The position numbers and the translations under genes were made by a program. This document shows positions 1 to 37,800 of a stretch of DNA of 64,000 nt, one piece after another. This DNA is from Malacoraja senta (lineage: Eukaryota). The DNA is taken from NCBI GenBank assembly GCA_038087875.1, contig CM075993.1:9674001-9738000 (forward strand), read 5' to 3'. The notes beneath the pieces were generated by a model, which did no database searches, had not been told where the DNA came from, and saw nothing but the letters and a program-made list of their open reading frames with translations. Every line of letters starts with the position of its first letter. The first letter of the stretch is position 1.

Positions 1-3000
1 AACCCGTCCTCTGCCCATTTGAATGAGGTTAAAGAGCGAGGGAGCTGCTTAGCCAATGAGTTAATCGGTAATAGCTCACTCTTTTGGTAGTTAAGTTTAT
101 AACCAGAATACGCTCCAAACCGTTCTAAAATATTCGTAATCACAGGGAGAGAACTGACTGGGTTCGAGATGTACAGGAGCAGGTCATCCGCATACAATGA
201 GACTTTATGAGTTGTGTCGAACCGTGTAATACCTTTAAAGCCCTTCTCTGAGCGTAACCAGACCGCCAAGGGTTCTATCGCGACAGCAAACAGGAGTGGT
301 GATAACGGGCAACGCTGTCTGGTACCTCTCTGAAGGGTGAAGTGGGGCGACAGTGTGTCGTTTGTTTGTACTGAGGCCACCGGGGACGAATATAATAGAC
401 TGACCCAAAGAATAAAACTGTTACCAAGGCCAAACCTGTCCATCGCCTCATATAGGTACCTCCACTCGACCCTGTCGAAAGCTTTTTCGGCGTCGAGGGA
501 GACCACTATCTCCGGGGTCTCACTACTCGGAGAATGGATGATGTTAAGGAGACGCCTAGTATTGTGGGAAGACTGTCGGCCTGGTATGAACCGTGTTTGA
601 TCTAATGAGATAATAGAGGGCATCACTCGTTGAAGACGGAGCGCAAGGGCTTTAGAGAGGATTTTGAGGTCCACATTCAGGAGTGAAATTGGTCTATAGC
701 TACTACAAAGCAGGGGATCTTTCTCCTTTTTAAGAATTCGGGAGATAGTAGTCCACGACAAGGTGGGCGGTAGGCGACGATGTAAAAACGCCTCATTGTA
801 CATATCTCTCAGGACTGGTGCGAGGAGATCAGAGAAAGCTTTGTAATATTCTACAGTGAAGCCGTCAGGGCCGGGTGACTTTCCGCTTTGCAGCGATGTG
901 ATGGTTGCTTGAACCTCAGCAACAGTTATGGGACCACCCAAGTCTCTCGTGGCTTCATCGTCAATTCGGGGAAACGTCATACTACTGAACATGTCACCTG
1001 CAGTGGGAGGACAATCGGAATCGTATAGTTCAGCGTAGAATTTAGCTAATGCTTCATTCATTCTAAGAGGATCAGTATGAATCTCCCCTAAGCTGGATCT
1101 AATGGCTGGAATTAGCCGTGAAGTCGCCTCTGTTCTGGCCTGATGGGCCAAAAGCTTCCCAGCTTTATCCCCGGATTCAAAAAAGTGTTGCCTAGATTTA
1201 AGCAGTCGTAGCTTGGCTTTATTAGTAGACGTGAGGTCAAAGTCTGTTTGTAACCTAAGGCGTTCTCTATAAAGGTTAGGGTTTGGGTCAAATGCATATT
1301 TGTCATCAATGTCCTTTATTTTTTGTAACAGGTCTGCCGTTTGGGACGTCTCGGTTCTTTTCAGGTTGGAGACAAAAGAGATAAGTTGGCCCCTAATATA
1401 GGCTTTTGAAGCTTCCCAGAGTATACCTCTTTCTATGTCCGGCGAGTCATTCAGCTCAAAATATAAGGTGATTTGGGAGTGCAAGAATTGCATGTAGTGA
1501 GCCTCTGCTAATAATGAGGAGTTGAACCTCCACTTAGAGGGGTTAGTTCGTTTACGAAAATGGAGATCGAGGGAGGTCGCAGCGTGATCTGATATTACGA
1601 TGCTATGATACTCGCTGGATTTGATTTTGGAGAGCAGTCTGTTATCTAAGAGAAAGAAGTCTATACGGGTATAGGTACGGTGCACGTGGGAAAAAAATGA
1701 AAATAATTTAGTCGTGGGGAATGTAAATCTCCATGGGTCTGTGAGCCCAAGTTGTTTGGCAAAAGCATGCAGAGTCTTACCTGATTTAGTTAAAGTAGAG
1801 GCTTTGTTCGAAGATCTGTCCAGTATAGGGTCTTGGACCAGATTAAAATCTCCACCCACAATGACGTGGTGATTTTCAATATTTGACAAAGCGGCCAGCA
1901 GGATCCTCCACAGTTTTCTGTGGTTCGAACATAACGTTCTTACGAATCAGGATAGCAGTACCCCTAGCCCTATCATTAAATTTCGAGTGAAATAAGTGGC
2001 TAAACCAGCCTCCTTAAGCCGTGTTACGTCTCTGTTGCGAAGTTGGGTCTCTTGAATAAAAAATATATCGCCTTTGAGCTGTTGCAAGTGGGCCAAGATC
2101 CTGTCAGTCTTGGTAGGATTTCCCACCCCCCTCACGTTCCACGAGACAAATCTAAGAGTGGCGTTTGTGTTGGCCATACTTAGCTATATCCAAGCGAGTG
2201 GGCAGAGCGCTGTAGTACTGCAAGTCGAGACGGAAGAGCGCATCGAAGCCAGCTGCCAAGAGTGGGGATGTGGAGGGGGGGGGGAAGGAGTAATAAAAAA
2301 ATAATAATAATAAACAATAAAATAAAATAAAATAAAAAAGATACATACACACACAACAAACAAGTGGGACACATATCACTTAACCATCTTTCAGACCTGA
2401 GTCCCCGGACCTGAGATCCCCCATGTCCCAACTGAACCTTGAGTGCCCATTGCACCAAGGTGCGTTGTCCTCGCATCCGCATGGAGATATCCGATCTTAA
2501 CTCCCAATATTTCCACCTCCCAAAGCAACAAAATCGCTCAATGTCAGTAAAGTAACATAAAATGAAATAAGTATAGTAGTAGTAATGATAACAATGGTAA
2601 TAATAATTTGAAAAATAGAAAGTAGAAATAAAGTAAAATAAACATAAATAAATAAATACAAAGTTGAAATAATAGCCAAAGTAGTTGCACTGCCAATGTC
2701 ATTGCTAACACTAATGGTAATGATAGTAATCATGATAGTAATAATAAGACAAAGCAAATTAACAAAATGGTGATACTGAATAAGCAGGCCAACGTATAAG
2801 GGAAGCAAGAATAGCTTCCTTTGGTGTTACATAGTATATCTTAAAGTCGACAAAGTATAAAGAGAGAGTTAGCGTTGGAAAAGTTAGCAAATTACAAACT
2901 GGGCTCTTGGATTAAAGCGCAGGGCAAAAGAACATCAATTAAGTATTGTTAAACAAAAACGCTATAAGAGCAGATTGGTATTACATAGCCTTGGCTGTAA

Positions 3001-4160
3001 TGAGCTCTTATCAGCCCCAGACAGTCTGCTAGGAAGACTAGTGTAAACAAACTAGCCGAATGCTGACAGTGTTAGCAGCCAGCTGCTAAGAACAAGAAGG
3101 CAGAGACCAAGTCGCGAACCACAAAGTGGGTCCCTTAAGCCCAATTTTATAACATGTGCAGGTGAAGAACCTTTCAAGTATGATTACACATAAACAATAT
3201 AAGGAAAAGTTGGTATAAGATAGTCACGAATCGTGGTGAATTCTTACCAGCCTCATACATTTCAAGACAGGGGTCTAGTATAATCAGCAATGCCGAACGC
3301 TAGCAATGGCTAGTTACTAAGAGCAGTCAAGCTAAAGTTAGTCCATGTAACCGTAGATTAACCGGGCCCCTGTGCCACTCGGATATAGACGTACCGAACG
3401 AAGTCAGTCGTCTGTGGGTCCCGGTCTGCGTCGACGGTAAGATGAGATGAAATCCTGAGCGTCCTCTGGAGATGTTAGTCGTCGCCTCTTTCCCTCCCCG
3501 GCCATGATGAACAGCTTGGCTGGATAATGAAGGGAGGGTTTGAGACCCAGGTTGTACAGCTCCTTCATAACGTCTCGGTACGCGAAGCGTTGTTCAACTA
3601 TCTCGGGACAGTAGGCTTCGAAAATGTGGATCGGGGTATCCTTGTACTTCAGCTTACCCCTCTGCCTCCGAGCCTCACACACCACCAACTCGCGGGTCTG
3701 GTATTTATGGAAGCAGATCACAACTGCTTTGGGTTTCTCACCAGGGCTTGGCTTGGCTGTTAGCGTACGGTGGGCTCGGTCTAGCTCCGGGGCTGATTCC
3801 AGTGTGTGTTCGCCAAGAGTCTCGAGCAGGAGTTGAGAGAAAAAAGCTGTTGTTTGTGGGGCCTTCGATATTCTCGGGGAGACCGACTATCCTTATGTTA
3901 TTTCGGCGACTCCTGCCTTCCAGGCCGATAAGCTTAGACTTTAGCTTGGCGTTCTCTTCGGTCACCGTAGTTAGCATTGTCGTTATATCTCGTATGTCTT
4001 GGCTGGTGGTATCGGCAAAAGACTCTAATGACGAAAGACGGTGTTGGTGATCTAAAATAGTGGTCTGGATATTGTCCCGCTTCGTTTCCAGTTTGGTGAA
4101 CGCTGCGTTGAATTCTGCCAGTAGGTTGATTGCATTTGTCGAAAGAGGGCGGACCACGTG
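1..4160 (-). mobile_element. L1-clade LINE, 5'-truncated within ORF1, runs off the window edge; ORF1 ~4160-3404 and ORF2 from 2177, both disrupted
   Basis: ORF1 fragments EGRSRRNNIRIVGLPE and LKPSLHYPAKL. ORF2 endonuclease start SWNVRG...IQETQL; RT motifs toward position 1. Confidence 0.9.
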
Positions 4161-4714
4161 AAGGTTGCAATCTCCCACCCCATTTTTCATGCTGAATGAT
4201 TTGAATAATTTAAATATTTCTTCAGTCTCGACCTGAAACATCACATATTCCTTCGCTCCATAGATGCTGCTTCACCCACTGAGTTTCTCCAGCATTTTTG
4301 TCTACCTTCAATTTCTCCAGCATCTACAGTTCTTTCTTAAATATTTCCAGTAATCCCAATTTTTGTTTTGCACTGAAACAACTGAATTTGACAGCTGGCT
4401 CAGCCAGGGGGAGAAGATGAGACGTATGCAAGTGTGCTTCAGCATCTTTGAGTGTGGGTCTCATTCCTGCATCAATCCCTCTCCAGAGAACTACATGGAG
4501 GAAGCTCCACACCATTACTGCCTGCACTCTCATGCCCTTGGTTCAGTGCACCGTTCATCATACATTACAATTAAGTTGAAGCAGACACTTCAATACTTCC
4601 TGGGGTAATTTGCAATCACCCAAATTATATTACAGAACTATATTAGACAACCCCAGAAAAGCAAATCCTTTCCATCCTTTTTCTTGCTGCTTGAGATGCA
4701 GTAAATGGGTTTCG

Positions 4715-5030: not shown

Positions 5031-5733
5031 TTAAAAAGTGATTTGGAAGAACATCCACTCAGTCAGTAGGTTTAGCTACAGCAAAGGTATTTACTCAAGT
5101 GCAGAAAGAACGAGAAGGAAAATGAGTCCGAAGAAGGGTCCCGACCCGAAACATCACCCATCTTGTTCTCCAGAGATGCTGCCTGACCCGCTGAGTTACT
5201 CCGGCACTTTGTGTCTTTCCTTGGTAAACTAATATCTGAAGTTTCCTGTTTCTACAAGATGAAGTAACAGTTCTGGTTAATGATAATCCATTAACAGTGG
5301 TAGCGAGGCGAGACTGGACAGGTTGAGTGAAGTAATTTTTATTAATAATAAAAACGGAACGAAAACTCGTATAATTCGCGTGTCTGGCTTAGCTAACACA
5401 AACAGCTCCTGTTGCTGGGAGGAGCGCTGACGAATTAACTAAAAAGCCAATGAACGAACCCCCGCGATCACGAGATTGCTACAGTAGGAAAGAAGTAACT
5501 GGCAGCGTGCGTACGTGTGTGTTCACATCTTCTCGAAAAAGCAACGCGCGAACGGTAAAATTTTCACATATTCCGATATTTATCCCCTGGAGTCCGAAAT
5601 CGCCTTACCTGAAAATGTTGTTCTTTATTTCTCGTTTAAGAAGGAACTGCAGATGCTGGAAAATCGAAGGTAAACAAAAATGCTGGAGAAACTCAGCGGG
5701 TGAGGCAGCATCTATGGAGCAAAGGAAATAGGC

Positions 5734-5761
5734 GACGTTTCGGGTCGAGACCCTTCTTCAG
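5734..5761 (-). ncRNA. Minimal type-I hammerhead ribozyme motif
   Basis: CUGAAGA-A-GGGU(CUCG)ACCC-GAAAC-GUC. Confidence 0.7.
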
Positions 5762-5876
5762 ACTGAGGTGAGGGTGGGGGGGACGGGAAGAAGTAAGGAA
5801 GAGGCGGAGACAGTGGGCTGAGGGAGAGCTGGGAAGGGGAAGAGAAATTTCAGGTAGTCCCTGCTTTCTCCTCAGT

Positions 5877-5904
5877 CTGAAGAAGGGTCCCGACCCGAAA
5901 CGTC
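5877..5904 (+). ncRNA. Minimal type-I hammerhead ribozyme motif
   Basis: CUGAAGA-A-GGGU(CCCG)ACCC-GAAAC-GUC. Confidence 0.7.
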
Positions 5905-6049
5905 GCCTATTTCCTTCGCTCCATAGATGCTGCCTCACCCGCTGAGTTTCTCCAGCATTTTTGTCAACCTTCTTTATTTCTCGAGTTATTTATGAAAATG
6001 TTCACAAATCCGATAAAACGTAGAAAATAAAACGGCTCTTTCGCTGATG

Positions 6050-6420
6050 CCCACACTGGATCTGCCCACCTGCCGTCTGCTCGCTCTGCGAGTGACCTGC
6101 TCGCGCTGCGAGTGACTTCAAACCCCCACCTCTCCCTCTGTAAGCCTGGCCCGCCACTCCAGAGCTGTAGGTTAACCCGACGGGACAGGCAGAGTTGAGC
6201 TCCTCTTCTCCGCGCTGGCTGCAGGCCAGGGCCGCCGCTCCCATCGGTCCAGGCACTCGGGGAGGGGACGGGGATGGTCCAGTGGCGGTTCGGCAGCGCT
6301 GGAGACCCGGGTTGGATCCTGGCTGCGGATGAGGCGCCGGTCTGTGTGCGTGCAGCGGCACGATTGCTGAGAGTGTTTATCACGAGTTACCTTTGACAAA
6401 TCCCATGATTCCTTGCGTTT
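6050..6420. promoter_or_regulatory. CpG-rich segment with a ZNF143/SBS-like motif; possible promoter of a neighbouring gene
   Basis: High GC and CpG content. GACAAATCCCATGATTCCTTGCG at 6395-6417 resembles ACTACAATTCCCAnnATGCnnnGCG; TCACGAG at 6380-6386. Confidence 0.35.
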
Positions 6421-6996
6421 TTCAGGATATCGAACTCGCTTTATGAGCCATCCACAGCGTACAGATATATGATAAAGGAAATAACGTGAATAACATTTAG
6501 TGCAAGATAAAAATGCCAGAAAAGTCCAATCAAATATAGTCTGAGGGTGTCCAGTGAGGTGGATAGCAACTCAGGACTGCTCTCTAGTTGTTGGTCAGAT
6601 GGTTCAGTTGCCTGGGAAGAATTTGTCCCTGAATCTGGAGGTGTGTGTTTTCACACTTCTATACCTTTTGCCTGATGGGAGGGGTGAAGATGGAGTGGCC
6701 AGGACGAGACACCTCCTTGATTATGCTGCTGGCCTTGCATGTTCACCAGAGATGTTGCCTGACCTGCTGAGTTACGCCACCACTTTGTGGCTTTTGAAGC
6801 AATTACTATTTATTTTGCTGCAATAACATAGCATTGGGGCTCTGCTAATGGATTATTCCTGTTGACAAATAACAAAGACTCTTGTGTAACCTGAATACCT
6901 TCATGTGGAGTCTTGCTAACAATACTCAGGAGGCTTTGTGCATTGGACTTTTCACAGACCAGTAAACGGCACGACACGGATTGATGGTTCTGATAG

Positions 6997-7774: not shown

Positions 7775-7884
7775 TTATAACATCTTTCTAGCGACATAGT
7801 TCAAAATACCACCTTGTCTGTAAAAGGTGACTTCCATTTGATTGTCAAACTTTGCTGCAGCTTGAATGCCTTTCCTGTGTTCGT
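7775..7884 (-). CDS. IREB2: IREB2 terminal exon 22 coding part (110 nt as assembled; 1-nt deletion)
   Basis: cag|ACG AAC ACA GGA AAG GCA TTC [-]AA GCT GCA GCA AAG TTT...AAG ATG TTA TAA; TNTGKAF/[29 protein letters not shown]. Confidence 0.92.
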
Positions 7885-10800: not shown

Positions 10801-13800
10801 AGCGTTCTGCTGCGTCAAACACATCGAGCTGCAAAGGTAAAAAGGACAAAGCCTCAGTGGAAGGGGAAATGGACACAGCTTTACAGTTAAAGCATCAACC
10901 ACCCCAAGTGCTTACCGTTTGTCCTGATGGGATGTGCAATGTTTTAGGTGCAGTTTTGCCAATAAATTTGTTTAGGAGCCTGATGTTGGCGAAGGTCCCT
11001 CGAGTCATCACGGCGTCGTTACCCCTTCTTGCTCCGTAGGAATTAAACTCACGGGGAGTGAGGCTGAAGGTTAAAAAAAAAAAAAAGGATTTGCAAACTT
11101 TAAAAAAAAAAAATTATATTTAAATTTTTTATTAGAGGTATCTGCATATCATAGTCCAAACCATTACAAACTTTGTATAACGATTACATATTAAGTATCC
11201 AGGGTTCCGGGTACCCCGTTACCAAAGCAGCTGGGGTCCTCCTTTATCGGTTACATATTAACGTTGCCTCTAATTATTTATTTATATTTATAAATAATAA
11301 AAATAAAGAAAATAAAGAAATAAAAAGAAGAAATTAAAAAAGTAAGATAAACTATCAATAATACAACTTAGGAGAAAGGTCCATAGGTCAGAAAACGTAA
11401 CTATTCATCTAGTCCTGGGTTCAGGTTTCAGTCAGGCCTCCGCACCGGCCCAGTCTACCCCTTCAGATAATCTATAAACGGAGACCATATTTTAGTAAAT
11501 AATTCTGGTTTGTCAATTAAGACATATCTAATTTTTCCAAATATAAGGTCTCCGACATCTCCATAATCCACATCTTAATTGTGGGGGTTGCAGGGTTTTT
11601 TCCAAACTTTTAATATTAATTTTTTCCCAATTATTATGCTGTAGTCAAGAAAATTTCTTTGCTTTGTTGTAAGTTTTAGGTACTGTTCTGACATGCCCAA
11701 TATTATTAATTTAGGATCAGGATCCAGTTGAATATTAACAACTACAGAGATTATTTTTAAAATATCCATCCAATAATTTTTAATTTTTATACAATTTACA
11801 AAAGTATGGGTTAAATTAGCCGATGAGTGTTGGCATTTATCACAGATAGGGATATTAGGAAAGATTCTATTTAATTTTGTTTCTGAATAATGCAATCTAT
11901 GTAGTACTTTAAATTGTATTAAAGAGTGTCTGGTATTTAATGAACATTGATGTATATGTTGTAAACTTTCATCCCAAATATCTTTTGTTATAGGTTGGGC
12001 TAGTTCCTTTTCCCATGCTAGTCTATATAATTCCGTCGACGGAGTCTCACTGTCTAAAAGAGTATTATAAATATAAGATATTAATTTATCTGTATTAGGG
12101 TGTTTATTCAAACATTCATCTAGAATTTCTGGTTCTCTAGTTCTGTATTCTTGTGTATGTGATTTAACATAATCTTTAAGTTGTAAGTATCTAAAAAAAT
12201 TATTTGAATGTAATCCATAGTTCAGTTATAGTTCCTGAAACGAAAGAAAAATACCGTTTCTCTAAAGATGTCCCATCTTTTTAATTCCATGATTTTTCCA
12301 TTGTATCCTTTATCCAACACTGAGGGTTTAAATGAAGGATTATTTGCAATGGAGAGGGAAAATTATAAATTATCCAATTTTAATGTATTTTTTAATTGTT
12401 TCCAAATTCGAATTCCACTATATATTATAGGGTTTTCATTAGAGATTTTTTAATTCAGTTTTGTAGGAGCTAACAGGATCGGACCAATTTCAAAAGGTAA
12501 ACAATCTTCCTTTTCCATCTTTAACCAGTCTGGTTGTTGATCCATATCTTCCAACCAAAAATTCATGTTTTTGACATTTACTGCCCAAAAATAAAATAAA
12601 AAGTTTGGTAAAACTAATCCTCCTTTGGTCTTGGGTTTACATAGGTGTTTTTTGCTTATTCTGTGATTCTTATAATCCCAAATAAAACATGTCACAATAG
12701 AATCGACTTTTTTAAAGAATTTTTTTGGGAGATATATCGGGATTGATTGAAAGAGGTATAGCAATTGCGGAAGGAAAATCATTTTTATAGCATTAATTCC
12801 ACCGAGCATTGAAATGAGAAGTGTTTTCCAGTATTGAATATTCTTATGCAGTTTATTAAGTAAAGGCATGAAATTTGATTTAAATAGAGAGTTATATTTC
12901 CTTGTCACATAAATTCCAAGATATTTAAATTTTTCATTAACTATTCTAAAAGGTGAATGTTGCAATATATATGAATTAGATTCCGTTATTGGCATAATCT
13001 CACTTTTGTTCCAATTAATTCTATATCCTGAAAATAAACCAAATTGAGATAAGATTTAACAAGTTTGGAATGCTGGGTTTGTAATATATAATAATACATC
13101 GTCTGCGTATAGAGAGATTTTATTAACTGTATTTTTAGTATTATACCCATATATTTCTGGGTGTGCTCTAACTCTTTCTGATTGTGGTTCGATAACAAGG
13201 GCAAATAATAACGGTGATAACGGGCATCCTTGTCTGCAACCTTTAGATAAATCAAATTTTGTTAATAGCATTTGATTTGTCATTATTCTAGCTGTTGGGT
13301 TAGTGTATAAAAGCTGCATGTGCAAAACTTCTCACCCAATTGAAATTTTTCCATCACCGAAAATAAATAGGGCCATTCCACTTGATCGAATGCTTTCTCA
13401 GCATCTAACGATATGACTGCTAAATCTACATTAGCTATTCTGTTTGAGTATATAATATTAAATAATCGTCTCAAATTATAATATGAGTAGCATTTTGGAA
13501 TAAAGCCAGTTTGGTCAGGGTGTATTAATTTATGAATCACTAAACTTAATCTATGGGCTAAAATTTTAGTTAATATTTTCTGATCGGTGTTTAAGAGAGC
13601 GATTGCTCTATATGAATCTGGATCTTCAAGGTCCTTATCCATTTTGGGTATGTATTATTGTTGATTCGTTTAAAGTTTCTGGTAGTTTCTGTTGCATAAA
13701 GGCATGAGTATATAGTGTCTTTAAGTGTGTGGAGATCAGGTCATGAATTTTTTTTATAAAATTCGCTATTTAAACCATACGGGCCAGCGGCCTTTCCATT

Positions 13801-16800
13801 TTTTAGAGATCTGATAGATTCTTCAATATCTTTTACTGATATTTCGGCCCCTAATAATTCCCTCTTTCAGATCTAAACCTGTAAGATTACATTTCTGTAA
13901 GAATGATTCCATTCCTGCAGAGCCCACTATCGTTTTGGATGAATAAAATGTTTGATAGTATTGAGAAAATCTATCATTAATATCCTTGGGTAATGTTAGC
14001 ATTTCTCCCGTATCAGATTTAATTTTATAAATTGTTTTTTCCCCTTCCTGTTTCCGGAGCTGACGTGCTAGTAATTTTTATGGTTTATCACCAAACTCAA
14101 AGTATAGTTGTTTAGTATTTTGATAACGTTTTATGATTTGATCTGAATATAGTTGATTTAACTTATATTTAAGTGCTGCAATTTTATTATGTAATATCGT
14201 AGAGGGCGTGATTGCATTTTCCATATCTAATTGCCTTACCTCCTTTTCCAATTCCTGTTGTTCATGACCCGGTTCTCTTTATTACGAAAGGCTTGCGCAG
14301 AGATTAACACTCCTCGTATAAATGCTTTAAATGTTTCCCAAAAAAGGGAGGGAGTTATTTCCGGGCAATCATTAGTCTCAAAAAACATATTTATCTGTGT
14401 GGTAAGATATTCACAACATGCTTTATCATTTAAAATCTGAGGATTAAATCTCCATTGTGTCTGCTTCTCAGTCATTCCACTTAGTTTGATCATAAATGTT
14501 AGAGGTGCATGGTCCGAAATTATAATATTATGATATTTTGAGTTATAAGTAAATGGGATAAGCTTAGAGTCTACTAAAAAGTAATCTATTCTTGAGTAAG
14601 TTTTATGTACCGGTGAATAGAATGAATATTCCCTTCCAGATGGGTTTTTAATTCTCCAAACATCTTTGATATTAGTAGAGTTAATGTATGAGTTTATTAA
14701 TTCACTTGTTTTAGATTTTGCTTTTCTTTGTCTTGATGATCTATCTAAATAGTCTAGTGTACAATTTAAATCTCCTCCAATTATCAAGTTATGTTGTGTA
14801 ATTTCCAGGATATTATTAAGTATATTCTTAAAAAACAGTTATCAAAATTTGGTCCATAGACATTAAGAAGAATTACTTTTTTAAAATATAATTCACCCAC
14901 TAGTATTATATATCTACCATTCTTGTCCGCAATAGTTGATATGTGTTTAAAGGGTATACCTTTACGGATTACAATTGCAACCCCTCTAGCCTTACGGGAG
15001 AATGAAGAGTGATATGTTTCAACAATCCATTTTGCTTTCAATCTATGTTGTGCTTCATTTTTAAGATGAGTTTCTTGAAGAAATGTTACATCTGCATTAA
15101 GTGATTTTAAGTGTGCTAATACTTTACCTCTCTTAATTGAGTCATTAATTCCCTTAACGTTCCAGCTACAAAAAGTAATTCCTTGACCCCCAATTTTTCT
15201 ATTAACGTCTTGCATCTTATGGTTAGAATAGTCTATAATAGAGTAGGTAGCCCAGCGCAGTAAGCCAGACAATCCACCCGAACACAGGACAGATGAGTTT
15301 TAAATTGAATAGATCTTCCTCCTGGACCCCTCTCCACGAATAATACATATATTTCAAGTCAACTTTATGATAGAAATTAAGTACGAAATAAAGAAAGAAA
15401 ATAAAAAAATAAAGATTAATAAAGTGCAAGAAAAAAGAAGAAACGACATCTACAAATAGTGTAGTTAGTGTTAGCCACACTAACGTGGCTGGCCATCTAA
15501 GGACTTCCGTAGCCTTAGAAAAAAAAAAGTATTACTAGCTCCACGCTAAAAAAAAACAATAACTCAGTTAGTGTAATTTACGGGATTAATGTTATAACCA
15601 TTTTGGTCCAAAAGATTAGTAATCATATAATGAGAGACTATTACTCTCTTGGTTAAGTAGTAGTCAGTTATTAGTCTGATGTAAAAGAAAAAAAAGAAAC
15701 AACGATAAACATGGCTCAATTTAATTAATAAAATAACCAGGTTATACCTTGTTTGCAATTAATAATTAACTAATTAACTAATTATTCTAATAATAATAAT
15801 AGTAGTCTTAATAATTAGTATTTGTTAGTAATAATTAGTACAAAAATATTAAAATAATATGTCCATATCAATACGGTTTGTTCAGTTGTCGTTATCAGCT
15901 TTCATTAGTCCTTAAGTAAAATGACTTAAAGTTCCATTTATTCTCAGCAAGGTGAAGATATCATATGAATGTTATTCAATCAGCACTCAAGTCCGCGGTC
16001 TTCTGAGCGATCTTCTGGGCATACGCCAATGCTTCCTTGTGATCCGTAAAAAACATTTCCTTCTGCTTATAGAGATGACTCTCAATCTTGCAGGGTACAA
16101 CAATCCATATCTCAAATTGTCTATCTTCTTAAGAATCCCTTTTGTCTCAGTAAATAACGCTCTCTTTGTGACCACCTCCTTTGGGTAGTCTCTGAATATG
16201 CTGATTTTGTCCCCCTCGAACTGAAGATTTCTGGTGTTAGCAACTTTTTTCATGATATCCTCCAAGACGTGATCGTATTGCACCTTCACTATCAGTTGCC
16301 TTGGGGGAATGTCCAGGCCCGGGCGACGTCTCCCAACCCTGTGTGCCCGGCCTAATAAAGGTCTATGATCCAAATTCAAGACTTTTTTCAATAAGTCTGC
16401 AGCATAGTCACGGACGTCATTATTACCTTCTTTACCCTCTCGGACGCCAACAATTCTTAAGTTCTGACGTCTCTGATGTCCTTCCAAGACAATACATTTT
16501 TCAGTTACTGTATGCAGTAAATCTGATAACCGTTTGTTCTCTTCTAGAAGTGCTTCTGTAGTTTTCGAACTCGCATCAGCAATTGACTCCAAATAGCTTC
16601 AGTTTGTTGATTTATCGTGTCGTAAATAGGATCCAGCTTACCATTTAGATTGTCTTCAGTCCACCTAATTTTCTCATTTACTTCTTCAATTTGTAAATCG
16701 AGGTTAGCAGATATTTTCCCATTCATGGCAATCAGTTAGTTCTTCACGGACAAACTTAGAAATTTTCTCATCAAACATTAAAAATTCATTTTTGATTTCA

Positions 16801-19800: not shown

Positions 19801-22800
19801 AGGGTGGTTAGTGGACAGAATAGGCAGGTGAAAGGCGGAGAGCGAGGAAGGAGAGTTGGTTTAAATTGCACGTATTTTAATGCAAGGGGCCTGACGGGCA
19901 AAGCAGATGAGCTTAGGGCATGGATAGGTACGAGCGACTGGGATGTTGTAGCCATGACTGAAACCTGGTCAAGGGACGGGCAGGACTGGCAACTCAATGT
20001 TCCGGCGGGGTACAGGAGCTTCAGGAGAGAAAGGGTTAAAAGAAAAAAAAGGAGGGGGGTTGCATTGTTGGTTAAGGAGGATGTCACAGTTATGTTCAGA
20101 GGTGACATTACGAACGGTTCATCTAGTGAGGCTATATGGGTGGAGCTGAGGGACAAGAAAGGGATGATCACTTTGTTGGGGGTGTACTACAGACCCCCGA
20201 ATAGTCAACGCGAATTAGAAGAGCAAATGTGCCGGGAGATTGCAGACAGCTGCAGGTCAAATAAGGTTGTTGCAGTAGGGGATTTTAACTTTCCCAATAT
20301 ACACTGGGAAAATCATAGCGTGAAAGGTTTAGATAATAATAATAATAATAATTCATTTTATTTACTGGCGCCTTTCTAAAACCCAAGGACACCTTACAAG
20401 GCATAGAATCACAAAAATACAAAACACATAATCGGAAAAAATTAAATATAAAAACACCACAGTACACAAATCAAGGACAGAATTCAATTTCAAAAGCACA
20501 AAAAGAAAATAAGAAACACAATTTGAGGAGAGAGCAGCGGCGACTAATTCGCGCCAGCGTCCACTCTCCCCTCCGACCGCCATCTTGCACACAGACTAAC
20601 AGGCACAGCACACAAAAATCATCCCCCCACAATGACCACCACTGTGGGGGAAGGCACAATGTCCAGTCCCCAACCCAGTTCTCCCCAGAGTCAGGCCCAA
20701 TGAGGCTTCCACAGTTGCCTCTACGGAGGCCCGATGTTCCTGGCCGTCGGGAGAGTCCTCGCAGCGGCTGGAACGGCCAGTTTCCCAGCGGAGTCGATGG
20801 CACCTGAAGCCGACGGGGCCGCGCCGATTTGGAGCCACGAGGCTCCCGATGTTGGAGTCGGCGCCGCCACTGGTCGCTCCGCAGTCCCGCAGCCCGGAGG
20901 TGTTGATCTCGGCGGTCAACGCATACCGGAGCTCCAGCGCGTCGATCCAGCGCGGCGACCCAGGCAAGGCATCGCCCGCTACGCTCTCCGATAGCGCTCC
21001 AGCGCTGTGCCGCCACCGAAGCTGAAGGTGCTGGGCGGTCCCTGTCAGGAAATGGCGCTCCATGCCCGCTGGTAGGCCATGAGGACGGGTCGACGAGGCA
21101 GCCTGGAGAAAAAGCTGCCTCACCGACCAGGTAGGGACCCAGAAATAGTTTCCCCTTACCCCCCCACATTAAAAGTCAAAATCCCCCAAACAAACAAAGA
21201 AATAAAAAAAGCTAAAACTAAAGAAAAAGTGAATTTGACGGACGGCTGCTGTTTAGCAGCCGTTCCTCCAAGATGGCGGCTCCTCCTTGATGGTACTCCT
21301 AGATGGGGTGCAATTCCTCAAAAGTGTTCAGGAGAGTTTTCTTAAGCAGTATGTGGAGACTCCCACACGTGAGAGGGCAACGCTGGATATAGTATTGGGA
21401 AATTGAGAAGGGCAAGTTAATGAAGTGTGTGCGGAGGAGCCTTTTGGGACAGTGACCACAGTTTGATTCGGTTTAAAATAGTTATGGATCGGGACGGAGA
21501 GGGTCCACGTGTTAAAATGCTCAACTGGGGTAAGGTCAACTTTGAGGATATGAGAGAAGGTCTCGCTCAAGTTGACTGGAGCAGGTTATTAGATGGGAAA
21601 GGAACATCAGCCAAGTGGGATGTTTTTAAAAGTTTACTGAAGAAAGCTCAGGATATGTACGTCCCCGTTAGAGTGAAGGGCAAAGCAGGCAAACGTAAGG
21701 AAGCTTGACTGACGAGGGAAATTGAGACGTTGGTCAAAAACAAGAATGGTGCATGGGACAGGTATAGGCAGCTGGGATCAAGTGCATCCCTGGAGGAGTT
21801 TCGGGAACTAAGGAGCAAAACTAAAAAATGGAAATCAGAAAATAGGGGCCAGGAGATAGCTCTGGCGGGTAGCATTAAGGACAACCCCAACAGATTTTAT
21901 AAATACATAAGGACGAAAAGGGTAACTAGAGAGAGTGGGACCTCTCAGGAATCCAAGCAGTCACCTCTGTGTGGAGCCACAGGAGGTGGGCAAGGTACTA
22001 AATTCTCCTCTGTATTAACCGAGGAGAAAGACAGTAGGACGGAGGAAATTGGAGCAGTCACTGGAATTGTGTTGAGAGCAGTCAGGGTTACCGTCGAAGA
22101 AGTACTGAAGGTATTGTTGTGTTTGAAGGTAGATAAATCTCCAGGGCCTGATCAGATATATCCAAGGTCGTTGAGGGAAACTCGAGTGGAAATTACGGGA
22201 GCCCTGGTTGAAATTTACGAGTCGTCCTTAAATACAGGAGAGGTGCTGGAAGACTAAAGGGTGGCAAATGTTGTGCCTCTTTTCAAGAAAAGCTGCAGGG
22301 AGAATGCTGGGAACGATAGGCCGGTGAGCTTAATGGGCCTGTCCCACTTAGGCGACTCTTTAGGGGACTGCCAGGGACTAGTTTTAATGGAATTCACCTA
22401 CGACACCTGGCGACAACCTATGACAGTACCTACGTCAACCTGCGACAGCAAAAATTGTCCCCACTGTCGCCGAAAATTTTTCAACATGTTGAAAATTTTG
22501 CGGCAGTTGCCTGCAGTTGCCCAGAAGATCGCCTAATTGGGACAGGCCCATAACATCTGTAATAGGTAAGTTACTGGAGAGTATTCTGAAGGATAGGTTA
22601 TACAGACATTTGGATGGGCAAGGGCTGATGAGGGATAGTCAGCATGGTTTTGTATGTCTCAAAAATCAGATTTTTGAAAATGTGACCAAAAAGGTTGATG
22701 AGGGTAGAGCTGTAGATGTTGTGTACATGGATTTCCGTAAGGCATTCAACAAGGTTCCGCATGGTTGGCTGCTCTGGAAGGTTAGATCGCATGGGATCCA

Positions 22801-25800
22801 AGGAGATATAGCTGAATGGATAGCAAATTGGCTCAATTTAAGGAAGCAGAGGATGATGTTGGAAGGTTGCTTCTCAGACTGGAGGCCTGTGACTAGTGGT
22901 GTGCCTCGGGGTTCGGTGCTGGGCCCGTTACTGTTTGTCATCTACATCAATGATTTGGATGAGAACATACACGGCAAGATTAGCAAGTCTGCTGATGATA
23001 CAAAGGTTAGTGGTTTTGCAGATAGTGAAGATTGTTGTGAAAAATGCAGCAGGATCTGGATCGATTGGCCAGGTGGGCGGGGGAATTGGTTGATGGAATT
23101 TAATACAGAAAAGTGTGAGGTGTTGCATTTTTGGACATCGAACAAGGGCAGGACCTACACAGTAAATGGTAGGCCTCTCGGTAGTGTTGTAGAGCAGAGG
23201 GTTTTAGGACTACAGGTGCATGGTTCCTTGAAGGTTGAGTCGCAGGTAGATAAGGTCAAAAAGGCTTTTGGCACTTTGGCCTTCATCAGTCAGAGTATTG
23301 AGTATAGAAGTTGGGAGGTCATGTTGCAGTTGGTGAGACCGCATTTAAAATATTGTGTTCAGTTCTGGGCACCATGTTATAGGAAAGATATTGTCAAGCT
23401 TGAAAGGGTTCAAAAAAGATTTGCAAGGATGTTGCCAGGACTAGAGGGTGTGAGCTATAGGGAGAGGTTGAGTGGTTTGGGTCTCTGTTCCATGGAGCAC
23501 AGGAGGATATAACCATATAACCATAACCATATAACCATAACAGCACGGAAACAGGCCATCTCGGCCCTTCAAGTCCGTGCCGAATAAGGATGAGGGGTGA
23601 TCTTATGGAGGTATACAAAATCATGAGAGGAATAGATCAGGTAGATACACAGTGTCTTTTGCCCAGAGTCGGGGAATCGAGGATCAGAGGACACAGGTTC
23701 AAGGTGAAGGGGAAAAGATTTAATAGGAATCCGAGGGGTAACTTTTTCACACAAAGGGTGATGGGTGCATGGAACAAGCTGCCGGAGGAGGTAGTTGAGG
23801 CTGGGACTATCCCATTGTTAAAGAAACAGTTAGACAGGTACATGGATAGGACAGGTTTGGAGGGATATGGACCAAGCGCAGGCAATTGGGACTAGTGTAG
23901 CTGGGACATTGTTGGTAGTGTGGGCGAGTTGGGCCGAAGGGCCTGTTTCCACACTATCACTCTAGGACCGTGATAGGGGCAGAATTTGGTCATTCAGCCC
24001 ATCAAGTCTACGCTATCCAATCATGGCTGATCTATCTCCCCGAACCCCATTTATCTGCATTCTCCCTATAACCCCTGACACCCATACTAATAACAAATCT
24101 GTCTATCTCTACCTTAAAAATATCTATTGTCTTGGCCTCCACAGCCTTCTGTGGCAAATAATTCCACAGACTCACCACCCTCTGACTAAAGAAATTCCTC
24201 ATCTACTTCCGAACGGAATGTTCTCTAATCCTTTAATTAAGGCTATGATCTTGGGTCCTAGACTCTCGTACTAGTAGAAACATCCTCTCCACATCCACTC
24301 TATCAAGCCTTTCACTATTCGGTAAGTTTCAATGTGCTTTTCCCCTCATCCTTCTAAACTTATGCGAGTATAAGCCCAGTGCTGTCAAACGCTCATCATA
24401 TGTTCTATGTTGTCCTATTTTCTCTTCCATTCACTATACACTAGGGACAATTTACAGAGGCCAATTAATCTACAAACCTGCACGTGTTTGGGATGTGGGA
24501 AGAAGCCCATGCAGTTACAGGGAGAACACCGCCTGGATCGAAACCTGTTCTCTGGTGCTGAGAGGCATCAACTCTACCAGCTGTGTGACCAAGTGATAAG
24601 ATCAACATGAACACAGTGGCAAATATAGAAACAGCAATCCGTTTATTAAAATATTACTTACAAGTTTATCAAAAAATGAAGGACATCTGATGTAGGTTGA
24701 CTTTGAATCCCATGGATACAGAAGTGACTCTGGAGCTTCCAAGGCGTTCCAGCGATTATTTCCTTTCTGGGGTGGAAAGAAAATATTTCAGCTGAATACC
24801 ACTGACATTACCACCGGGTGTTGCCTATAATGGCCGCCTCGCCTGCAGCCTGTCGAGTCCCTTCTCTATTTTTGTTATTTTGAGACCGAAGAAGGGAACT
24901 AAAAAGTTTGGCAGTTGGAGTTCAACTCGGGTGAGTTCACGAGCGACAGCACAGTAGTAGTTGACTATTAACTTGATGCGCGTGTGAGCGACGGGGCTGT
25001 GTCTGTTAATTATTAAACGGAGTGTTTACACAACGTGTGGATCTCTAAACCTCTGTCATTGATTTCCTACATTGTTTCAAAATCTATTTTAGCTGCAATA
25101 ATGCATCTCATCTTTCGTCAGGGAACATGCTTACATCCCAGCTTGAGAAAGGGAACACCTTTGCTGCTTTGACACGGAATGTGTTCATCCTGCCATTACC
25201 ACGTACATCTTGCATTGGGCATATATAAATTACTTGTTCAGTATTTAATAAATAGTTGATTTCACAGAGACATGGCTCACCCCCAGCTCCCCAAACTCAG
25301 CGGTCCAGCCTGAAGGTTTCTCCATCCATCGCATGGACTGTACACTGGCACCTGGGAAAGAGAGAGGAGGAGGCGTCTGCCTCATGGTCAACTCTGCGTG
25401 GTGTTCAGATGTGGCAGTCCTATCCAACTCCTGCTCTCCACACCTGGAACACCTGGCTGTGAAGTGCCGTCCCTTCTACCTACCGAGGGAATTCTCCTCC
25501 ATCATCCTGATCACGGTCTACCTCCCACCCCAGGCTGATGTCCACCTGGCACTGGGGGAGCTGCACGCCGTGGTCAACAAGCACCAGATGGCTTACCCCG
25601 AGGTGTTTACCACCTTAGCCGGGGAGTTCAACAAAGCCAACCTGAAGAAATCGCTCCCTAACTTCCACCAACATGTCTCTTGCAGCACCAAAGGACCAAA
25701 CACCCTCGACCACTGCCATATGACCATCAAAGACGCCTATCGCTCTATCCCTCGCCTTCAGTTCGGTAAATCCGACCATTCTGCGGTGCTGCTGCTTCCT

Positions 25801-28800
25801 GCCTACAGAAAGCAATTGAAAAGCGCACCCCCAGAAGTGAGGACTGTACAGAGCAGGTCGGGGGTGGGGGGGGGGGGGGTGGGGGGGCAGAGGAAGAACT
25901 CCAGGACTGTTAGGAGAATGTAGACTGGCCAATGTTCAGGGACTCGGCAATGGACCTGAATGAATACGCCACAGTCATTACAGACTTCATAAAGAAATGT
26001 GTGGAGGACTGCGTCCCAACAAAAACCTTCCGAGTGTTTCCTAACCAGAAGCCTTGGATGAACCATGAGATCCGCACTCTTCTGAAGTCCACATCCCAGA
26101 CATTCAGGTCTGGAGATGCAGTGGTCTACAAGAAGTCCAGATATGACCTTGGTAAGGCCATCAAAAAGGCCAAAAGGGACTTCTGCTCCATGCTGGAGGA
26201 TGAGACGGATGTTCGGCAACTGTGGCAGGGCTTGAATGCCATCACCTCCTACAAGGCGAAATCAGGAGGTAGCTCAATTGTCAGCGAAGCATCACTCCCT
26301 GACGAGTTCAATGCATTTTACGTACGCTTTGATAGGGAGAACACTGATGTGCCTTCTTGAGCCCCCATTCGCCGTGAATGGTATTTCAGTCAGTCACAGA
26401 GGCCGACGTCAGAAGATCTATCAGGATGGCTTTCTGTATTTCTTCTTCCGTGATGGGTTCATCTAACAACAGAGACTCATTATGTGGTAAATTTGGCAAG
26501 TTCAGTTTCTTTAAAAACTCATGCATTATATTGGAATCAGTAGGAAATTCTGATTGGTATAAAATTCCTGAAAGGATTTATTAATTTCGTCATGGTCTAC
26601 AGTTAGTGTACGATCCCGTTTACTCACTTTAATAATCTGACGTTTGGCCGACACCGCTTTCAACTGATTAGCGAGTAATTTACCAGATTTTTCGCCATGT
26701 ATATAAAATTGACTTTTGGTTTTAAGTAGCTGGTTCTCAATCGGTGATACTAATAACAAATCATATCTCAATTGAAGTTCAACTATTCTTATTGAGCTCT
26801 AAACTGAGAGCTTTTGAATATTTTTTAATCAATTTCTTTAATCTCGTCAGCCAATATAAGTATTTCTTTGTGAGCTTTTTTTTTAAATCCCGCGGAGTAT
26901 GAAATAATTTGTCCACGAATATATGTCTTAAAAGCATCCCAGACTACACCATTGGATATTTCTTCAGTAGAATTTGTCAAGAAGAAAAAAGCAATCTGAT
27001 CTTTAATAAAATTAACAAAATTTAAATCTTGAAGCAAAGTAGTTTAGCACTAAACTTGGAATCAGGTAGTTTGATTGATAGTTTAGCATTGTTTAGCACT
27101 AAACTTGGAATCAGGTAGTTTAATTGATAGTTTCAATGGTGCGTGATCAGAAATAGCAATTGCATCATACTCACATGCAGTGACCGTTGAAGCTAGCCGA
27201 GAATCTATTATAAAGTAGTCAATCCTAGAATAACTATGATATACATGAGAAAAAAAAGAAAATTCTTTGTCATTTGGGTGAAAGAATCTCCAAACTTCTA
27301 ACATTCCAGAGTCAAGTAAAAAAGAATTGATAAAATTAGCTGATTTATTTGGAAGCACATGATCAGATGTAGATCTGTCAATCAAGGGGTTCAGACAGCA
27401 GTTGAAATCTCCACCCATCATTAAAATGTGTTCATTTAAATTAGGAAAGGATGCAATTAACTGTTTAAAAAACTCAGGGTGATCAATATTTGGTGCGTAA
27501 ACATTCACCATAGCAACCTTTTGGTTATAAAGAACACCAGTAAACACCAAAAATCTACCATATGGATCAGAAATTGTTTCATAATGAACAAACGGAATTG
27601 AGGAGTCAATAAAAATAGAGACTCCTTTCACCTTAGCCTGTGAATTTGAATGATACTGCTGTCCTCTCCAAAACTTGAAAAATCGTTGATTGTCATTTTG
27701 CCTTACATGAGTTTCCTGGATAAAAATAATCTGAGCATTTAGTCTGCGAAGAACTTAAAAATTGTTTTCCTCTTAATGGGATGGTTCAAGCCATTCACAT
27801 TCCATGAAAGGAAGTTAATAACTTTATCCATATTGTTTGTAAAAATCATGTGGGATGTAAAGGGTTAATTTCTTAAAGCCTAATAGTTCATGATACTGGA
27901 AGAAGAAAAATCTAGGGCGGAGCCAGAAGTGATGACATTTCAGATATTTTTGTAGTTCAGATTTTGCTCAAATGAAAAACACTAAGTAAGAAACAAAAGC
28001 CCCCCCCCCCACCCATGTAAAGCCCGAAACTGACCAATAGACAGTCAGTAAGCTCCCTAATCCCTTCCCTACCCTCATCTCTCCTAGCAACAGCACCCAA
28101 CGTAGAAAAAAAGCATATTTGCCACTCAATAGCCATAACACGATCATTGTTGAGGTTTGAGAGAGGAGAAAAAAAAACCATGTTGGCAGTGAAGCTGAAG
28201 AGCAAGAGCTATATATTATTTATCCAAGGTCAAAATATGAAAAACAAGAACTGCGTTCACTTAATTTGTCTAAAGACAGGGGAAAACAAATTCCTTCAAT
28301 TTTAAGAATAAAAAATTAAGAGAGAGAAATTCTTTAAAATTAATATATATAAAATAAAAACAACTCGTCCAGTTAAATTCTTAATCATTACCAAACGATA
28401 TATTGTCAAAATAGGAACAGTAAATCTCCAATTATAACTTAATCAGCTTAAGAAGAACTTAAGAAGAAATACAGAAAGCAATCCTTTCAATGAATTCTGG
28501 TAAAGCTCCCGGTTTAGATGGGTCTACAGTAGAATTTTTAAAGTATTTTTCAAGTTTATTGTCTCCCTGGCTATGCAAGGTTTTTAAAGAAGCCTTTTTA
28601 AGGAATAGATTACTGCAATCTTTTTATGAAGCATCTCTTTAATTCTTTAAAAAGATAAAGACCCCACTGAAGTGACATCATATAGACCTATATCACTGTT
28701 GAATGTAGATTCCAAAATTCTTTCCAAAATATTCGCTATGAGATTGGAAAATATTTTACCGCAAATTATTTCTGAAGATCAGACAGGTTTTAGTAAAAAT

Positions 28801-34800: not shown

Positions 34801-37800
34801 GGATGTTAGGCTATACAAGATAGCGAAGCCGCACTATTCTGCTCCGTTTTGGTTACCCTGCTGTCGGAAAGCTGCCATTAGAAATGAATGTCAAAACGAT
34901 TTACCTCGAGGATGTTGCCAGAACTCGAAGACCTGAGCCATGGGGAGAGGCTGGGCAGACGGGACCTTTATTCGCTGGAGTGTAAGAGGCTGAGGGGTAA
35001 TCTTATAGAGGTGCATAAAATCATAAGGGGAATAGAGAGGGTGAATTTTTCCAGGGTAAGGGGAATCACGAACTAGAGGGCATGGATTTAAGGTTAGAGG
35101 GGAAAAATTTAATAGGAACATGAGGGGCAAAATGGGCAAGGCAGCTACAATCCTTATCCTTTATCTATCTATATATACAACTCTGTGGCTGCCTGACTTG
35201 TGTCTGCCTGACTTGTGTCCGCCTGACTTTCACCAAATTCCCTTTGATACCGCCCTAGGCCCACACAGCGTGCAGAAAGGCCCATTTTTTTTTACATTTC
35301 AAAAGACATGACATTTATCTTTACAAATAGCCACTCCTGATTAAATTCGCTTGTGTTTATGTACACGCTTTTTAATAAAATCTATCCCCCCCCACCCTTA
35401 TTCGATTGTCTCCAATTTTCTCCGAAAACGACGCCATCTTTTTTTCGCCGATTTTCTCCGAAAACGACACCATCTTTTTTTCGCCGATTTTCTCCGAAAA
35501 CGACGCCATCTTTTTTTCCCACATTTTCACCCCGGGGTCTGAAGCACCTTCGGGAACAACACCCCGGGGTGTGAAGCACTTTCGGGGACCAGACCCAACG
35601 GGTCTGCACTTGGTCTAGTATAACTATAACACTCTGATCTTGGATGTGTGTGTGTGTGTATTTGTGTATTTATTTGTTTCTGTGCGATCACATATTCTCG
35701 AAAAAACAACGCTCTAACGGTAAAATGTTTACATATTCTGGTAGAGATTTATCCTGTGAAGTCAAAAATCGCCATCTGAAAAATGCATGCATTATTTCTT
35801 GTTATTAATCAAAATGTTCAAAAATCTGAAGAGACTTGGTAAAAAATAACTGCTTTTTCCCTGACGTCGCAATGGGACTGTAGCCCTGCTCGCAACATTG
35901 TTGCTATCCAAATACACTGAGTCCTGCTAGACCTAGCAAGTGCAAGTGCATTTTTTTTCAAAGTCACAGTACACTGAGCTCTTTTTTTTAAAGTTTATTT
36001 TTTTAAAGTTTAAAAATGAGGGAGGCTGCATAAAATGAGCAGCCCCTATGCAGTTGTTGGCTATGGGTGAGTGGTGGAATATTGCGTTGGGGAACGGGTT
36101 GCTTTGGGGGACCAGGCCTCCCGTGTGACAGGGACCCAACGGGTCCCATTTGGTCTAGTAATATTTAAAAGACTGGGAAGGATTAGAAGACTTTGGGTTA
36201 AATGCTGGCAAATGGGACTAGCTTAGATGGGGCACCTTTGTCGGCATGACCAAGGTGGGTCGAAGGGCCTGTTTCCATGCTGCGTTACTCTAGAACCACA
36301 ACTTAGAGAAAAATAGCAGTGTGCATAAATCATGGTCAATAACAAGCAAGCAAAACCATTCGAGATTGAGAACCTAAAGATTATCAATCCTCTGCGTATA
36401 AATTTATCTTGTGCCAGTGCTAAATGGGTGGCACAAGAGGCCAAGCAGTTAATTATGTTTCATGACCTCAGGTGCTGTGTGTGTCGAGTTTTCACATTCT
36501 CTATGTAATCACAAGGCTTCCACCCAGAGCTCCTATTTTCCCCCATATTCCAAATATGTGCTGGTATGTCAAGAGGCTACTGAGGATTACCACTTCATCA
36601 ATGATTAAAAAGGGATTATGAAAGGAATCACACAAACAAACAGAGCACAGACATATGCTGGACAGTTTACTTTAGAATTTACTTTAGAGATATAGCATGG
36701 AAAAAGGTCCAACAAGTTCACACTGACCTTCGATCACCTGCTCACACTAGTTCTATGTTATCCCACTTTCTCATCCACTCCCTACTCACTCAGGGCAATT
36801 TTACAGTGGTCAATAAACCTACAAAACTGCTCGTCTTTAGGATGTGGGAGGAAATCAGAGCCCTAGGAGGAATCCCACTCAGTCACAAACTCCACACAGA
36901 TAGCACCCAAACCTGGAGTCTGGCGCTGTGCTGCTCAAGATCCTCCAGTCAAAGGACATATACTCTCATCGCAAAATTTTGAATTCCAAAATTCACAGTG
37001 AATGTTTGCCCTTCCCCAGAGAACATATTCTACAATAACATTGCACATTCTATCAACACTGGAACAAGGTTCATATTATGAGCTGTTTAATAAGGAACGG
37101 CATATGCTGGAAAATCGAAGGTAGACAATAATTGACCTCTAATTTCAGGTAGTCCTTGCTTTCTCCTCCCCTTCTCAGCTCTCCCTCAGCCCACTGGCTC
37201 CTCCACTTCCTTTCTTCTTCCCCCCCCCCCCGCCCCCCTCACATCAGTCTGAAGAAGGGTTTCGGCCCGAAACGTTGCCTATTTCCTTCGCTCCATAGAT
37301 GCTGCCTCACCCGCTGAGTTTCTCCAGCATTTTTGTCTACCTCATATTATGAGCTGGTTGTTCATTCATCGACAGTCATAAAGTAACAAAACAGCATGAG
37401 AGTTACACATAGACATCTGCATTTACCGTTTTGATGCCAGTGATAACAGACTCCGGTAATGGGGCCGTGTTCCCCACGCAGGTGGCACAGCCATAGCCAA
37501 TCACTTCAAACCTGTTTCAAAAAGATAGATCACTTTAGTTTAGTTTGGAGATACAGCACGGAAACAGGCCCTCGGCCCACCGAGTCCACGCACACTAACA
37601 CTATACTACACACTAGGGACAATTTACAATTTTACCAAGATAATCAGCCTACAAACCTGTACATCTTGAGTGTGGGTAGAAACTGGAGCACCCAGAGAAA
37701 ACCCACACAGGTTACGGGGAGAACGTGCAAACTCCATACAGACAGCGCCCATAGCCAGGATTGAACCCGGGTCTCTGGCGCTGTAAGGCGCCGCTCAAAT

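What the first reader, a model, noticed from the sequence alone, without database searches (positions are those of the whole stretch)
5635..5969. TSD-flanked non-coding retroelement with two divergent minimal hammerhead ribozymes, one per strand
Seen: a 335-bp insertion with a 14-bp TSD and ~100-bp inverted arms. Each arm contains CUGAAGA-A-GGGUnnnnACCC-GAAAC-GUC (minus 5734-5761, plus 5877-5904). Known: this is the minimal type-I hammerhead of Penelope-like element pLTRs and retrozymes. Its helix III is reduced to the palindrome ACGU and typically needs a dimeric fold, and Penelope insertions often carry an inverted terminal segment. Inference: this is a non-autonomous ribozyme-bearing element that was mobilised in trans, and any read-through transcript on either strand would carry a self-cleaving motif and a long hairpin. 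I do not know of a description of this family as ribozyme-bearing in chondrichthyans, but could not search.
Basis: partly seen in the sequence, partly recalled or inferred. Interest (0 to 1): 0.8.

Follow-up and report, generated by a model that had tools for sequence, protein, structure and literature searches.

The report
Truncated, inverted Penelope retrotransposon end
This 335-base DNA hairpin in a skate-like fish is a real insertion of two back-to-back end pieces of a very common, likely Penelope-type jumping gene; its two small self-cutting RNA motifs are a known feature of such elements and are predicted to be locked shut by the hairpin, so it is ordinary.

Summary
An uninterrupted paralogue of the target site lies at 35681-35864. 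The insert is one of about 21 insertions of one family in the window; 8 are two-armed. Its left end carries a 34-nt tail that the right end lacks. Read data continue the family upstream of 5846-5857 in an open frame that resembles a Penelope endonuclease end (motif recalled). So this is most likely a 5'-truncated Penelope-like element (PLE) with an inverted second pLTR piece; non-autonomy is not shown. This anatomy and opposite-strand hammerhead pairs are published. Any read-through RNA holds only one sense hammerhead, in the second arm, predicted fully paired. Helix I has 2 bp, and the core is no better conserved than the 3' block. The scan found this pattern before in other shark and skate DNA. 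What remains of interest: 6 of 8 two-armed inserts pair one tailed with one tail-less end, as expected if both target nicks prime at the two known PLE start sites.

The parts
5621..5634 (+). left copy of the 14-bp target-site duplication
   Evidence: single copy at the paralogous empty site
5635..5668 (-). 34-nt PLE-type tail, present only at this end (distal 3' end)
   Evidence: same terminus at 4341, 37086, 48248; loose ends pile up at 5634
5635..5847 (-). copy A: 5'-truncated pLTR with tail, hammerhead and pyrimidine-rich upstream part
   Evidence: 5668-5847 is 90% identical to sister 37160-37342
5734..5761 (-). minimal hammerhead core of copy A; predicted cut after 5734
   Evidence: compared by eye with the min-HHR consensus
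5844..5851 (.). inversion junction: 8-bp palindrome with 2-nt overlap (5846-5847) between copies A and B
5846..5857 (+). last three codons (N-F-R) and stop of the upstream open frame, likely the PLE endonuclease end
   Evidence: same 28 nt at 37141-37168; upstream continuation in loose ends; motif identity recalled
5846..5969 (+). copy B: pLTR piece with an internal jump of about 80 nt at 5872-5873, ending at the tail-less (proximal) 3' end
   Evidence: same end point as sister 37342
5877..5904 (+). minimal hammerhead core of copy B; predicted cut after 5904
5970..5983 (+). right copy of the target-site duplication
37086..37342 (.). sister insertion with the same two ends (tail left, tail-less right) and a 15-bp TSD
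35681..35864 (+). uninterrupted paralogue of the host repeat (empty site)

Best explanation
The insert consists of two back-to-back 3' end pieces of an abundant repeat between 14-bp target duplications, and is likely a dead, 5'-truncated Penelope-like retrotransposon insertion, probably made when the element's enzyme nicked both target strands and copied its RNA from each nick. Shown: TSD, empty paralogous site, tail at one end only, ORF stop inside the insert, a sister insertion with the same ends. Inferred: a dimeric RT-endonuclease nicks the two strands 14 nt apart; one nick primes at the distal (tail) start site and the other at the proximal start site 34 nt upstream; both cDNAs stop near the ORF end and join through a 2-nt overlap; copy B also jumps about 80 nt. 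The hammerheads are passengers of the pLTR. Their role, if any, is in the RNA of the tandem master element, as dimers or protein-assisted, and not at this locus, where they are predicted to be sequestered.
For: TSD and arms. Empty site. 3' ends of 28 family hits are bimodal: 14 tailed, 12 tail-less, 2 other; 6 of 8 two-armed inserts have one of each. Upstream open frame in loose ends of 4 of 4 runs. The arms differ at 4 of 98 positions, each private to one arm against the sister copy, so they were likely identical at insertion. Published anatomy: inverted truncated copy plus one-sided 30-40-bp tail (PMC8557442 passages; PMC3846280 passages; PMC2377424 passages). The anole PLE protein cuts and extends both strands, starts at two sites that bracket the tail, is predicted dimeric and does not need hammerhead cleavage (PMC11167929). 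Whole-element folds of -218.7 and -214.0 kcal/mol with stem II probability 0.
Against: No full-length RT plus GIY-YIG ORF was obtained: no genome is held, collection scans were empty and two protein searches gave no PLE protein. The endonuclease reading of the upstream frame rests on a recalled motif in 30-letter consensus loose ends. 6 of 7 classifiable pairs is only suggestive (binomial 0.06 by hand), one pair has two tails, and tail-less ends of old copies may be alignment ends. The palindromic junction also fits fold-back priming.
Confidence: 0.85

Rival explanations
1. Same element, different route to the inversion: one cDNA folds back (or an antisense template self-primes) at a palindrome, and the endonuclease resolves the intermediate at the tail boundary.
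For: The junction is an 8-bp palindrome and the arms were likely identical at insertion. Self-priming is proposed in PMC3846280 (passage), and endonuclease resolution as the source of the tail in PMC8557442 (passage). Several old pairs join at a perfect palindrome.
Against: Here it needs two extra deletions against one jump. In the pair at 33849/33978 the tails are of different subtypes (69% identical; 79% to another copy), although the 5' parts are closest to each other (89%). Solo copies also end at the tail-less point with a TSD (51924). The confidence given is for this route within the PLE reading; I put double priming at about 0.55.
Confidence: 0.3
2. A non-autonomous, SINE- or retrozyme-like derivative (about 125 nt from hammerhead to tail, or the whole hairpin) is transcribed and mobilised in trans.
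For: About 12 of 28 hits start right at the 5' edge of the hammerhead with no upstream pLTR by eye, and loose ends pile up at 5763-5767. pLTR sequences can act in trans (PMC3846280 passage). Retrozymes are proposed PLE derivatives and are reported in one chondrichthyan.
Against: This insert and its sister reach the ORF stop. Inversion junctions differ from insert to insert. No head-to-tail tandem, the mark of non-LTR retrozymes, is seen among the 28 hits. 1 of 28 hits (9262, decayed) starts near the predicted cut site.
Confidence: 0.1
3. The insertion acts as a bidirectional self-cleaving or dsRNA element that affects the neighbouring aconitase/IREB2-like gene, whose last coding exon ends about 1.8 kb away.
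For: Intact cores in both arms; a predicted 100-bp duplex; position downstream of a minus-strand aconitase-family gene.
Against: The sense motif is predicted sequestered, helix I has 2 bp beginning with a U-G pair, and stem II probability is 0.006 even in isolated 68-nt pieces. Published min-HHR monomers were inactive and dimers weak. Intact cores are expected from youth alone; 5 of 12 gap-free cores in the window are intact.
Confidence: 0.04

Closest known systems
Complex insertions of endonuclease-positive PLEs (Adineta Pen2a/Pen2, PMC3846280; general scheme, PMC8557442; D. virilis Penelope, PMC2377424)
   Same: Inverted 5'-truncated pLTR, tail of 30-40 bp at one end only (34 nt here), TSD, palindrome or short overlap at the inverted junction, internal microhomology deletion.
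   Different: Almost no ORF is left (three codons and the stop); TSDs are 10-17 bp here against 8-10 bp in the Adineta examples read; very high density (28 pieces in 64 kb).
[quoted passage not shown]
   Same: CUGANGA plus an extra A, G10.1-C11.1, GAAA followed by the palindromic C-G-U-C; dual motifs on opposite strands 100-700 bp apart were reported.
   Different: Helix II is 4 bp and helix I 2 bp, at the short end of the published set. No chondrichthyan row was seen in the part of the supplementary alignment read or by term search of the searchable file.
Poseidon element of Anolis carolinensis (PAc; Frangieh et al. 2024, PMC11167929)
   Same: Two 3' ends bracketing a tail, downstream of a hammerhead; no read pile-up at the cut site in RNA-seq.
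   Different: PAc's ORF starts at stem II; no start codon is at that place in these two arms. The clade of the present family was not determined.
Non-LTR retrozymes (PMC7229834, listing only; bioRxiv 10.64898/2026.07.22.740005)
   Same: Short, non-coding, type-I hammerhead, PLE-related; reported in one chondrichthyan.
   Different: Retrozymes are head-to-tail tandems with hammerheads on one strand; here the copies are solo or head-to-head.

Membership tests
EN+ Penelope-like element | pLTR with a minimal hammerhead | tested here: met
EN+ Penelope-like element | optional 30-40-bp tail, often at one end only | tested here: met
   34-nt tail 5635-5668; bimodal 3' ends 14/12/2 of 28
EN+ Penelope-like element | adjacent inverted 5'-truncated copy | tested here: met
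   8 two-armed inserts among about 21; inversion joints in contigs
EN+ Penelope-like element | target-site duplication | tested here: met
   14 bp here with empty paralogue; 10-17 bp repeats at 6 of 17 units examined, the other 11 had 9 nt or less
EN+ Penelope-like element | single ORF with telomerase-like RT and C-terminal GIY-YIG endonuclease | tested here: inconclusive
   only the last about 17 codons seen (window plus loose ends); motif match is recalled; no PLE protein retrieved
EN+ Penelope-like element | partial-tandem master copies | not testable with these tools
   no genome held
minimal type-I hammerhead | core CUGANGA(H)...GAAA, NUH cut triplet, G10.1-C11.1, palindromic 15.2-16.2 | tested here: met
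   against the consensus
minimal type-I hammerhead | helix I of about 3 or more pairs | tested here: inconclusive
   2 contiguous pairs only; 2-bp helices occur in published rows such as D. virilis
minimal type-I hammerhead | core conservation and stem II covariation across copies | tested here: inconclusive
   non-CpG core mismatch 15/164 against 52/527 in the 3' block (p=0.88) and 81/318 in the linker; G12 lost in 8 of 25; one double change in stem II among 17-19 copies
minimal type-I hammerhead | self-cleavage as a dimer or with protein help | not testable with these tools
   needs an in vitro assay
non-LTR retrozyme | head-to-tail tandem units, each with a same-strand hammerhead | tested here: not met
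   all 7 adjacent pairs among 28 hits are head-to-head
non-autonomous unit mobilised as a whole | same junction repeated at several sites | tested here: not met
   junctions differ among the 8 two-armed inserts of the window; genome-wide not tested

The most novel reading that the evidence does not exclude
This very abundant skate PLE family is a fossil record of how PLEs insert: both target nicks prime, one at each of the two RT start sites (each lying just after a repeated CCAGCA motif), which explains inverted pLTRs and one-sided tails in one step; and copying stalls at an intron-like acceptor directly before the hammerhead, not at its cut site, so integrated cDNA comes from uncut RNA.
Probability: 0.4. 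Interest if true: 0.4.

Novelty: new member of a known kind. Interest (0 to 1): 0.14.

Why it matters
As a locus it matters little: it is one decaying copy of a common repeat with published anatomy. As a family it offers a very large sample of short insertions whose ends can test how PLEs make inverted repeats and tails, which PMC8557442 calls still undefined. It also warns that hammerhead scans of skate genomes will return very many passive motifs.

Tried and rejected
Rfam: no match at gathering score in 64 kb; at E<=10 only hairpin-like chance hits, no hammerhead family. No whole genome is held. Exact-pattern scans of metagenome, viral and prokaryote contigs found 0. No further copy reaching into the ORF in the window. 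Protein searches with window frames: 2 hits among 7 candidates, neither a PLE protein; 1 weak unrelated hit. Run search: no RNA holder listed. One polyA run of another organism, about 6% read, showed no pile-up of starts or ends, and 95% of laid reads ran on into other sequence; this is uninformative on cleavage or on expression of this locus. Single arms fold no better than shuffles (z -0.2 to -0.6, 4 of 4). A promoter or CpG-island reading of the flanks was dropped because the flanks are themselves a repeat. The bacterial promoter scan does not apply. The 2017 paper on dimeric small hammerheads (PMC5785218) is not held, so I saw only its citation. Literature searches for a description of this family: (hammerhead or Penelope with shark, elasmobranch, skate, cartilaginous fish) listed nothing relevant; (Penelope, twin priming, inverted) listed 2 off-topic papers. 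Repbase and Dfam could not be searched. bioRxiv supplements are closed, so the chondrichthyan retrozymes of the 2026 preprint could not be compared; one supplementary file of PMC4209133 was not searchable.

Full report
Observation. A 14-nt direct repeat flanks 5635-5969 (5621-5634 and 5970-5983, 14 of 14), and the arms 5666-5771 and 5867-5972 are 95% complementary. The cores are at minus 5761-5734 and plus 5877-5904; of 10 loose hammerhead-core matches in the window, 8 are cores of this family. The target lies in another repeat, and a paralogue at 35681-35864 joins both flanks with a single target copy, which fixes the insertion as real. Rfam does not detect the motif.

Family. A profile built from 9 window copies finds 28 pieces in 64 kb; 7 adjacent pairs are all head-to-head, which gives about 21 insertions. 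With the sister at 37086-37342, whose short tail piece BLAST found, 8 are two-armed. Two public runs laid 149,828 (X1) and 127,078 (X2) contigs on 5250-6450, nearly all on the arms; among the 15 joints shown of 1,031, eight join 5763-5766 to 5872-5875, which are head-to-head fusions at the hammerhead edge in other loci. The tool warns that summed depth is no copy number, so I claim only very high abundance. A gene model of Leucoraja erinacea contains the same sequence at 90% identity in translation, so the family occurs in skates. The window's host gene is an aconitase-family gene on the minus strand (IREB2 by recall), ending near 7780.

Anatomy. Copy A (minus, 5847 to 5635) is a 5'-truncated pLTR ending in a 34-nt tail. 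Copy B (plus, 5846-5969) starts with 28 nt found at 37141-37168 in the sister, jumps about 80 nt, and ends 34 nt short of the tail end, at the same point as the sister. The junction is an 8-bp palindrome with a 2-nt overlap. Across the 28 pieces the 3' ends fall in two classes, 14 tailed and 12 tail-less, with 2 unclear. Six of the 8 two-armed inserts have one of each, one has two tails and one is too decayed. TSD-like repeats of 10-17 nt were found at 6 of 17 units examined; the other 11 gave 9 nt or less. The arms differ at 4 of 98 positions, each private to one arm against the sister.

Coding parent. Laying four runs on 37040-37250 gave loose ends before 37131 or 37137 in all four (X1 45 and 90 contigs, X2 55 and 114, X10 78, RNA run X22 96 reads). 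Their consensus is in frame with the N-F-R-stop at 37141-37152 and 5846-5857 and contains P-S-G-M-N, which I recall as the C-terminal motif of PLE GIY-YIG endonucleases; PMC8557442 names a conserved catalytic N beyond the GIY-YIG core (passage). I could not obtain the full ORF, so this defining feature stays inconclusive. It nevertheless makes simple truncation of a coding element more likely than a separate non-autonomous family.

Ribozyme. The core fits the published min-HHR consensus (PMC4209133 supplement 2, part 2 of 3), with a 4-bp helix II and a 2-bp helix I that starts with U-G in these two arms. On either strand the only sense motif is in the second arm, transcribed after its complement; whole-element folds are -218.7 and -214.0 kcal/mol with stem II probability 0, and isolated 68-nt pieces give 0.006. 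Conservation is mixed. Over all 28 pieces the non-CpG core differs from the majority at 16 of 199 cells against 239 of 1,476 downstream (p=0.002, copies not independent). In the 17 pieces spanning both regions it is 15 of 164 against 52 of 527 for the 3' block (p=0.88) and 81 of 318 for the linker. G12 is lost in 8 of 25 copies in a CpG context, stem II shows one double change, and 5 of 12 gap-free cores are intact. This looks like constraint in the parents and neutral decay in the copies (inference).

Mechanism. Shown: TSD, two classes of 3' end, inversion with short overlap. Inferred: staggered nicks, each priming at one of two start sites. This follows the anole PLE work, where the protein cut and extended both strands, began at two sites bracketing the tail, was predicted dimeric and inserted uncut RNA (PMC11167929, parts 1-2 of 4 read; its supplements 1-2 gave little text). 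The rival is self-priming with endonuclease resolution (PMC3846280 and PMC8557442 passages). The pair at 33849/33978 has tails of different subtypes but 5' parts closest to each other, a weak hint for two templates. Sixteen of 28 pieces start at profile position 6 or less; the profile starts there, and 4 of them continue upstream, leaving about 12 that begin at the hammerhead edge by eye. One decayed piece starts near the cut site. The edge follows a pyrimidine tract and CAG, and in D. virilis the pLTR intron ends at helix I, so an intron acceptor here is plausible but untested.

Prior knowledge. PMC4209133 (parts 1-2 of 4 read) reports dual min-HHRs 100-700 bp apart on opposite strands and most motifs as truncated PLEs. 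PMC8557442, PMC3846280, PMC2377424 and PMC6765202 (passages) describe the inverted copy, tail, TSD and dimer model. The 2026 preprint (parts 1-3 of 5 read) reports hammerhead retrozymes and PLEs across vertebrates including one chondrichthyan; its supplements were closed. Searches for this family in cartilaginous fish listed nothing relevant, but Repbase and Dfam were not available. A sequence look-up in this scan's notes found nothing; a word look-up returned 8 earlier AI reports of the same pattern in shark and skate DNA. These are leads, not support; my reading was recorded before that call.

Verdict. Real, but ordinary: a further member of a known kind. Interest 0.14; the mechanistic reading of the family's ends would merit about 0.4 if confirmed genome-wide.

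Noticed in passing
window 5290-5620, 5984-6047 and 35681-35864: The target is itself a CpG-rich, multi-copy repeat of unknown type (summed depth far above single copy; paralogue).
   Followed up: partly
window 37149-37247: Between the ORF end and the hammerhead lies a GT...pyrimidine tract...AG segment of about 100 nt that looks like a retained intron, as in D. virilis Penelope.
   Followed up: no
window 5635-5700 and family copies: Both classes of 3' end lie shortly after a repeated CCAGCA motif, one copy per end; it may mark the two RT start sites.
   Followed up: partly
window 33839-34117: Two-tailed head-to-head pair with a 10-nt TSD (one mismatch) whose tails are of different subtypes.
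   Followed up: partly
P0001: A Leucoraja erinacea NmrA-like gene model includes about 40 residues read from this pLTR, probably an annotation through an insertion.
   Followed up: no
window 35586-35620: A short hairpin followed by CTAG, resembling a Helitron 3' end (recalled), just upstream of the host-repeat paralogue; three short tandem units lie at about 35420-35515.
   Followed up: no
window 1876-4271, 11575-16598, 21709-23895, 25252-32977, 59306-60942: Many decayed LINE-like ORFs (endonuclease and RT pieces, by eye and recall) fill the introns and flanks of the aconitase-family gene.
   Followed up: no
window 53117-53316: Assembly gap of 200 N.
   Followed up: no
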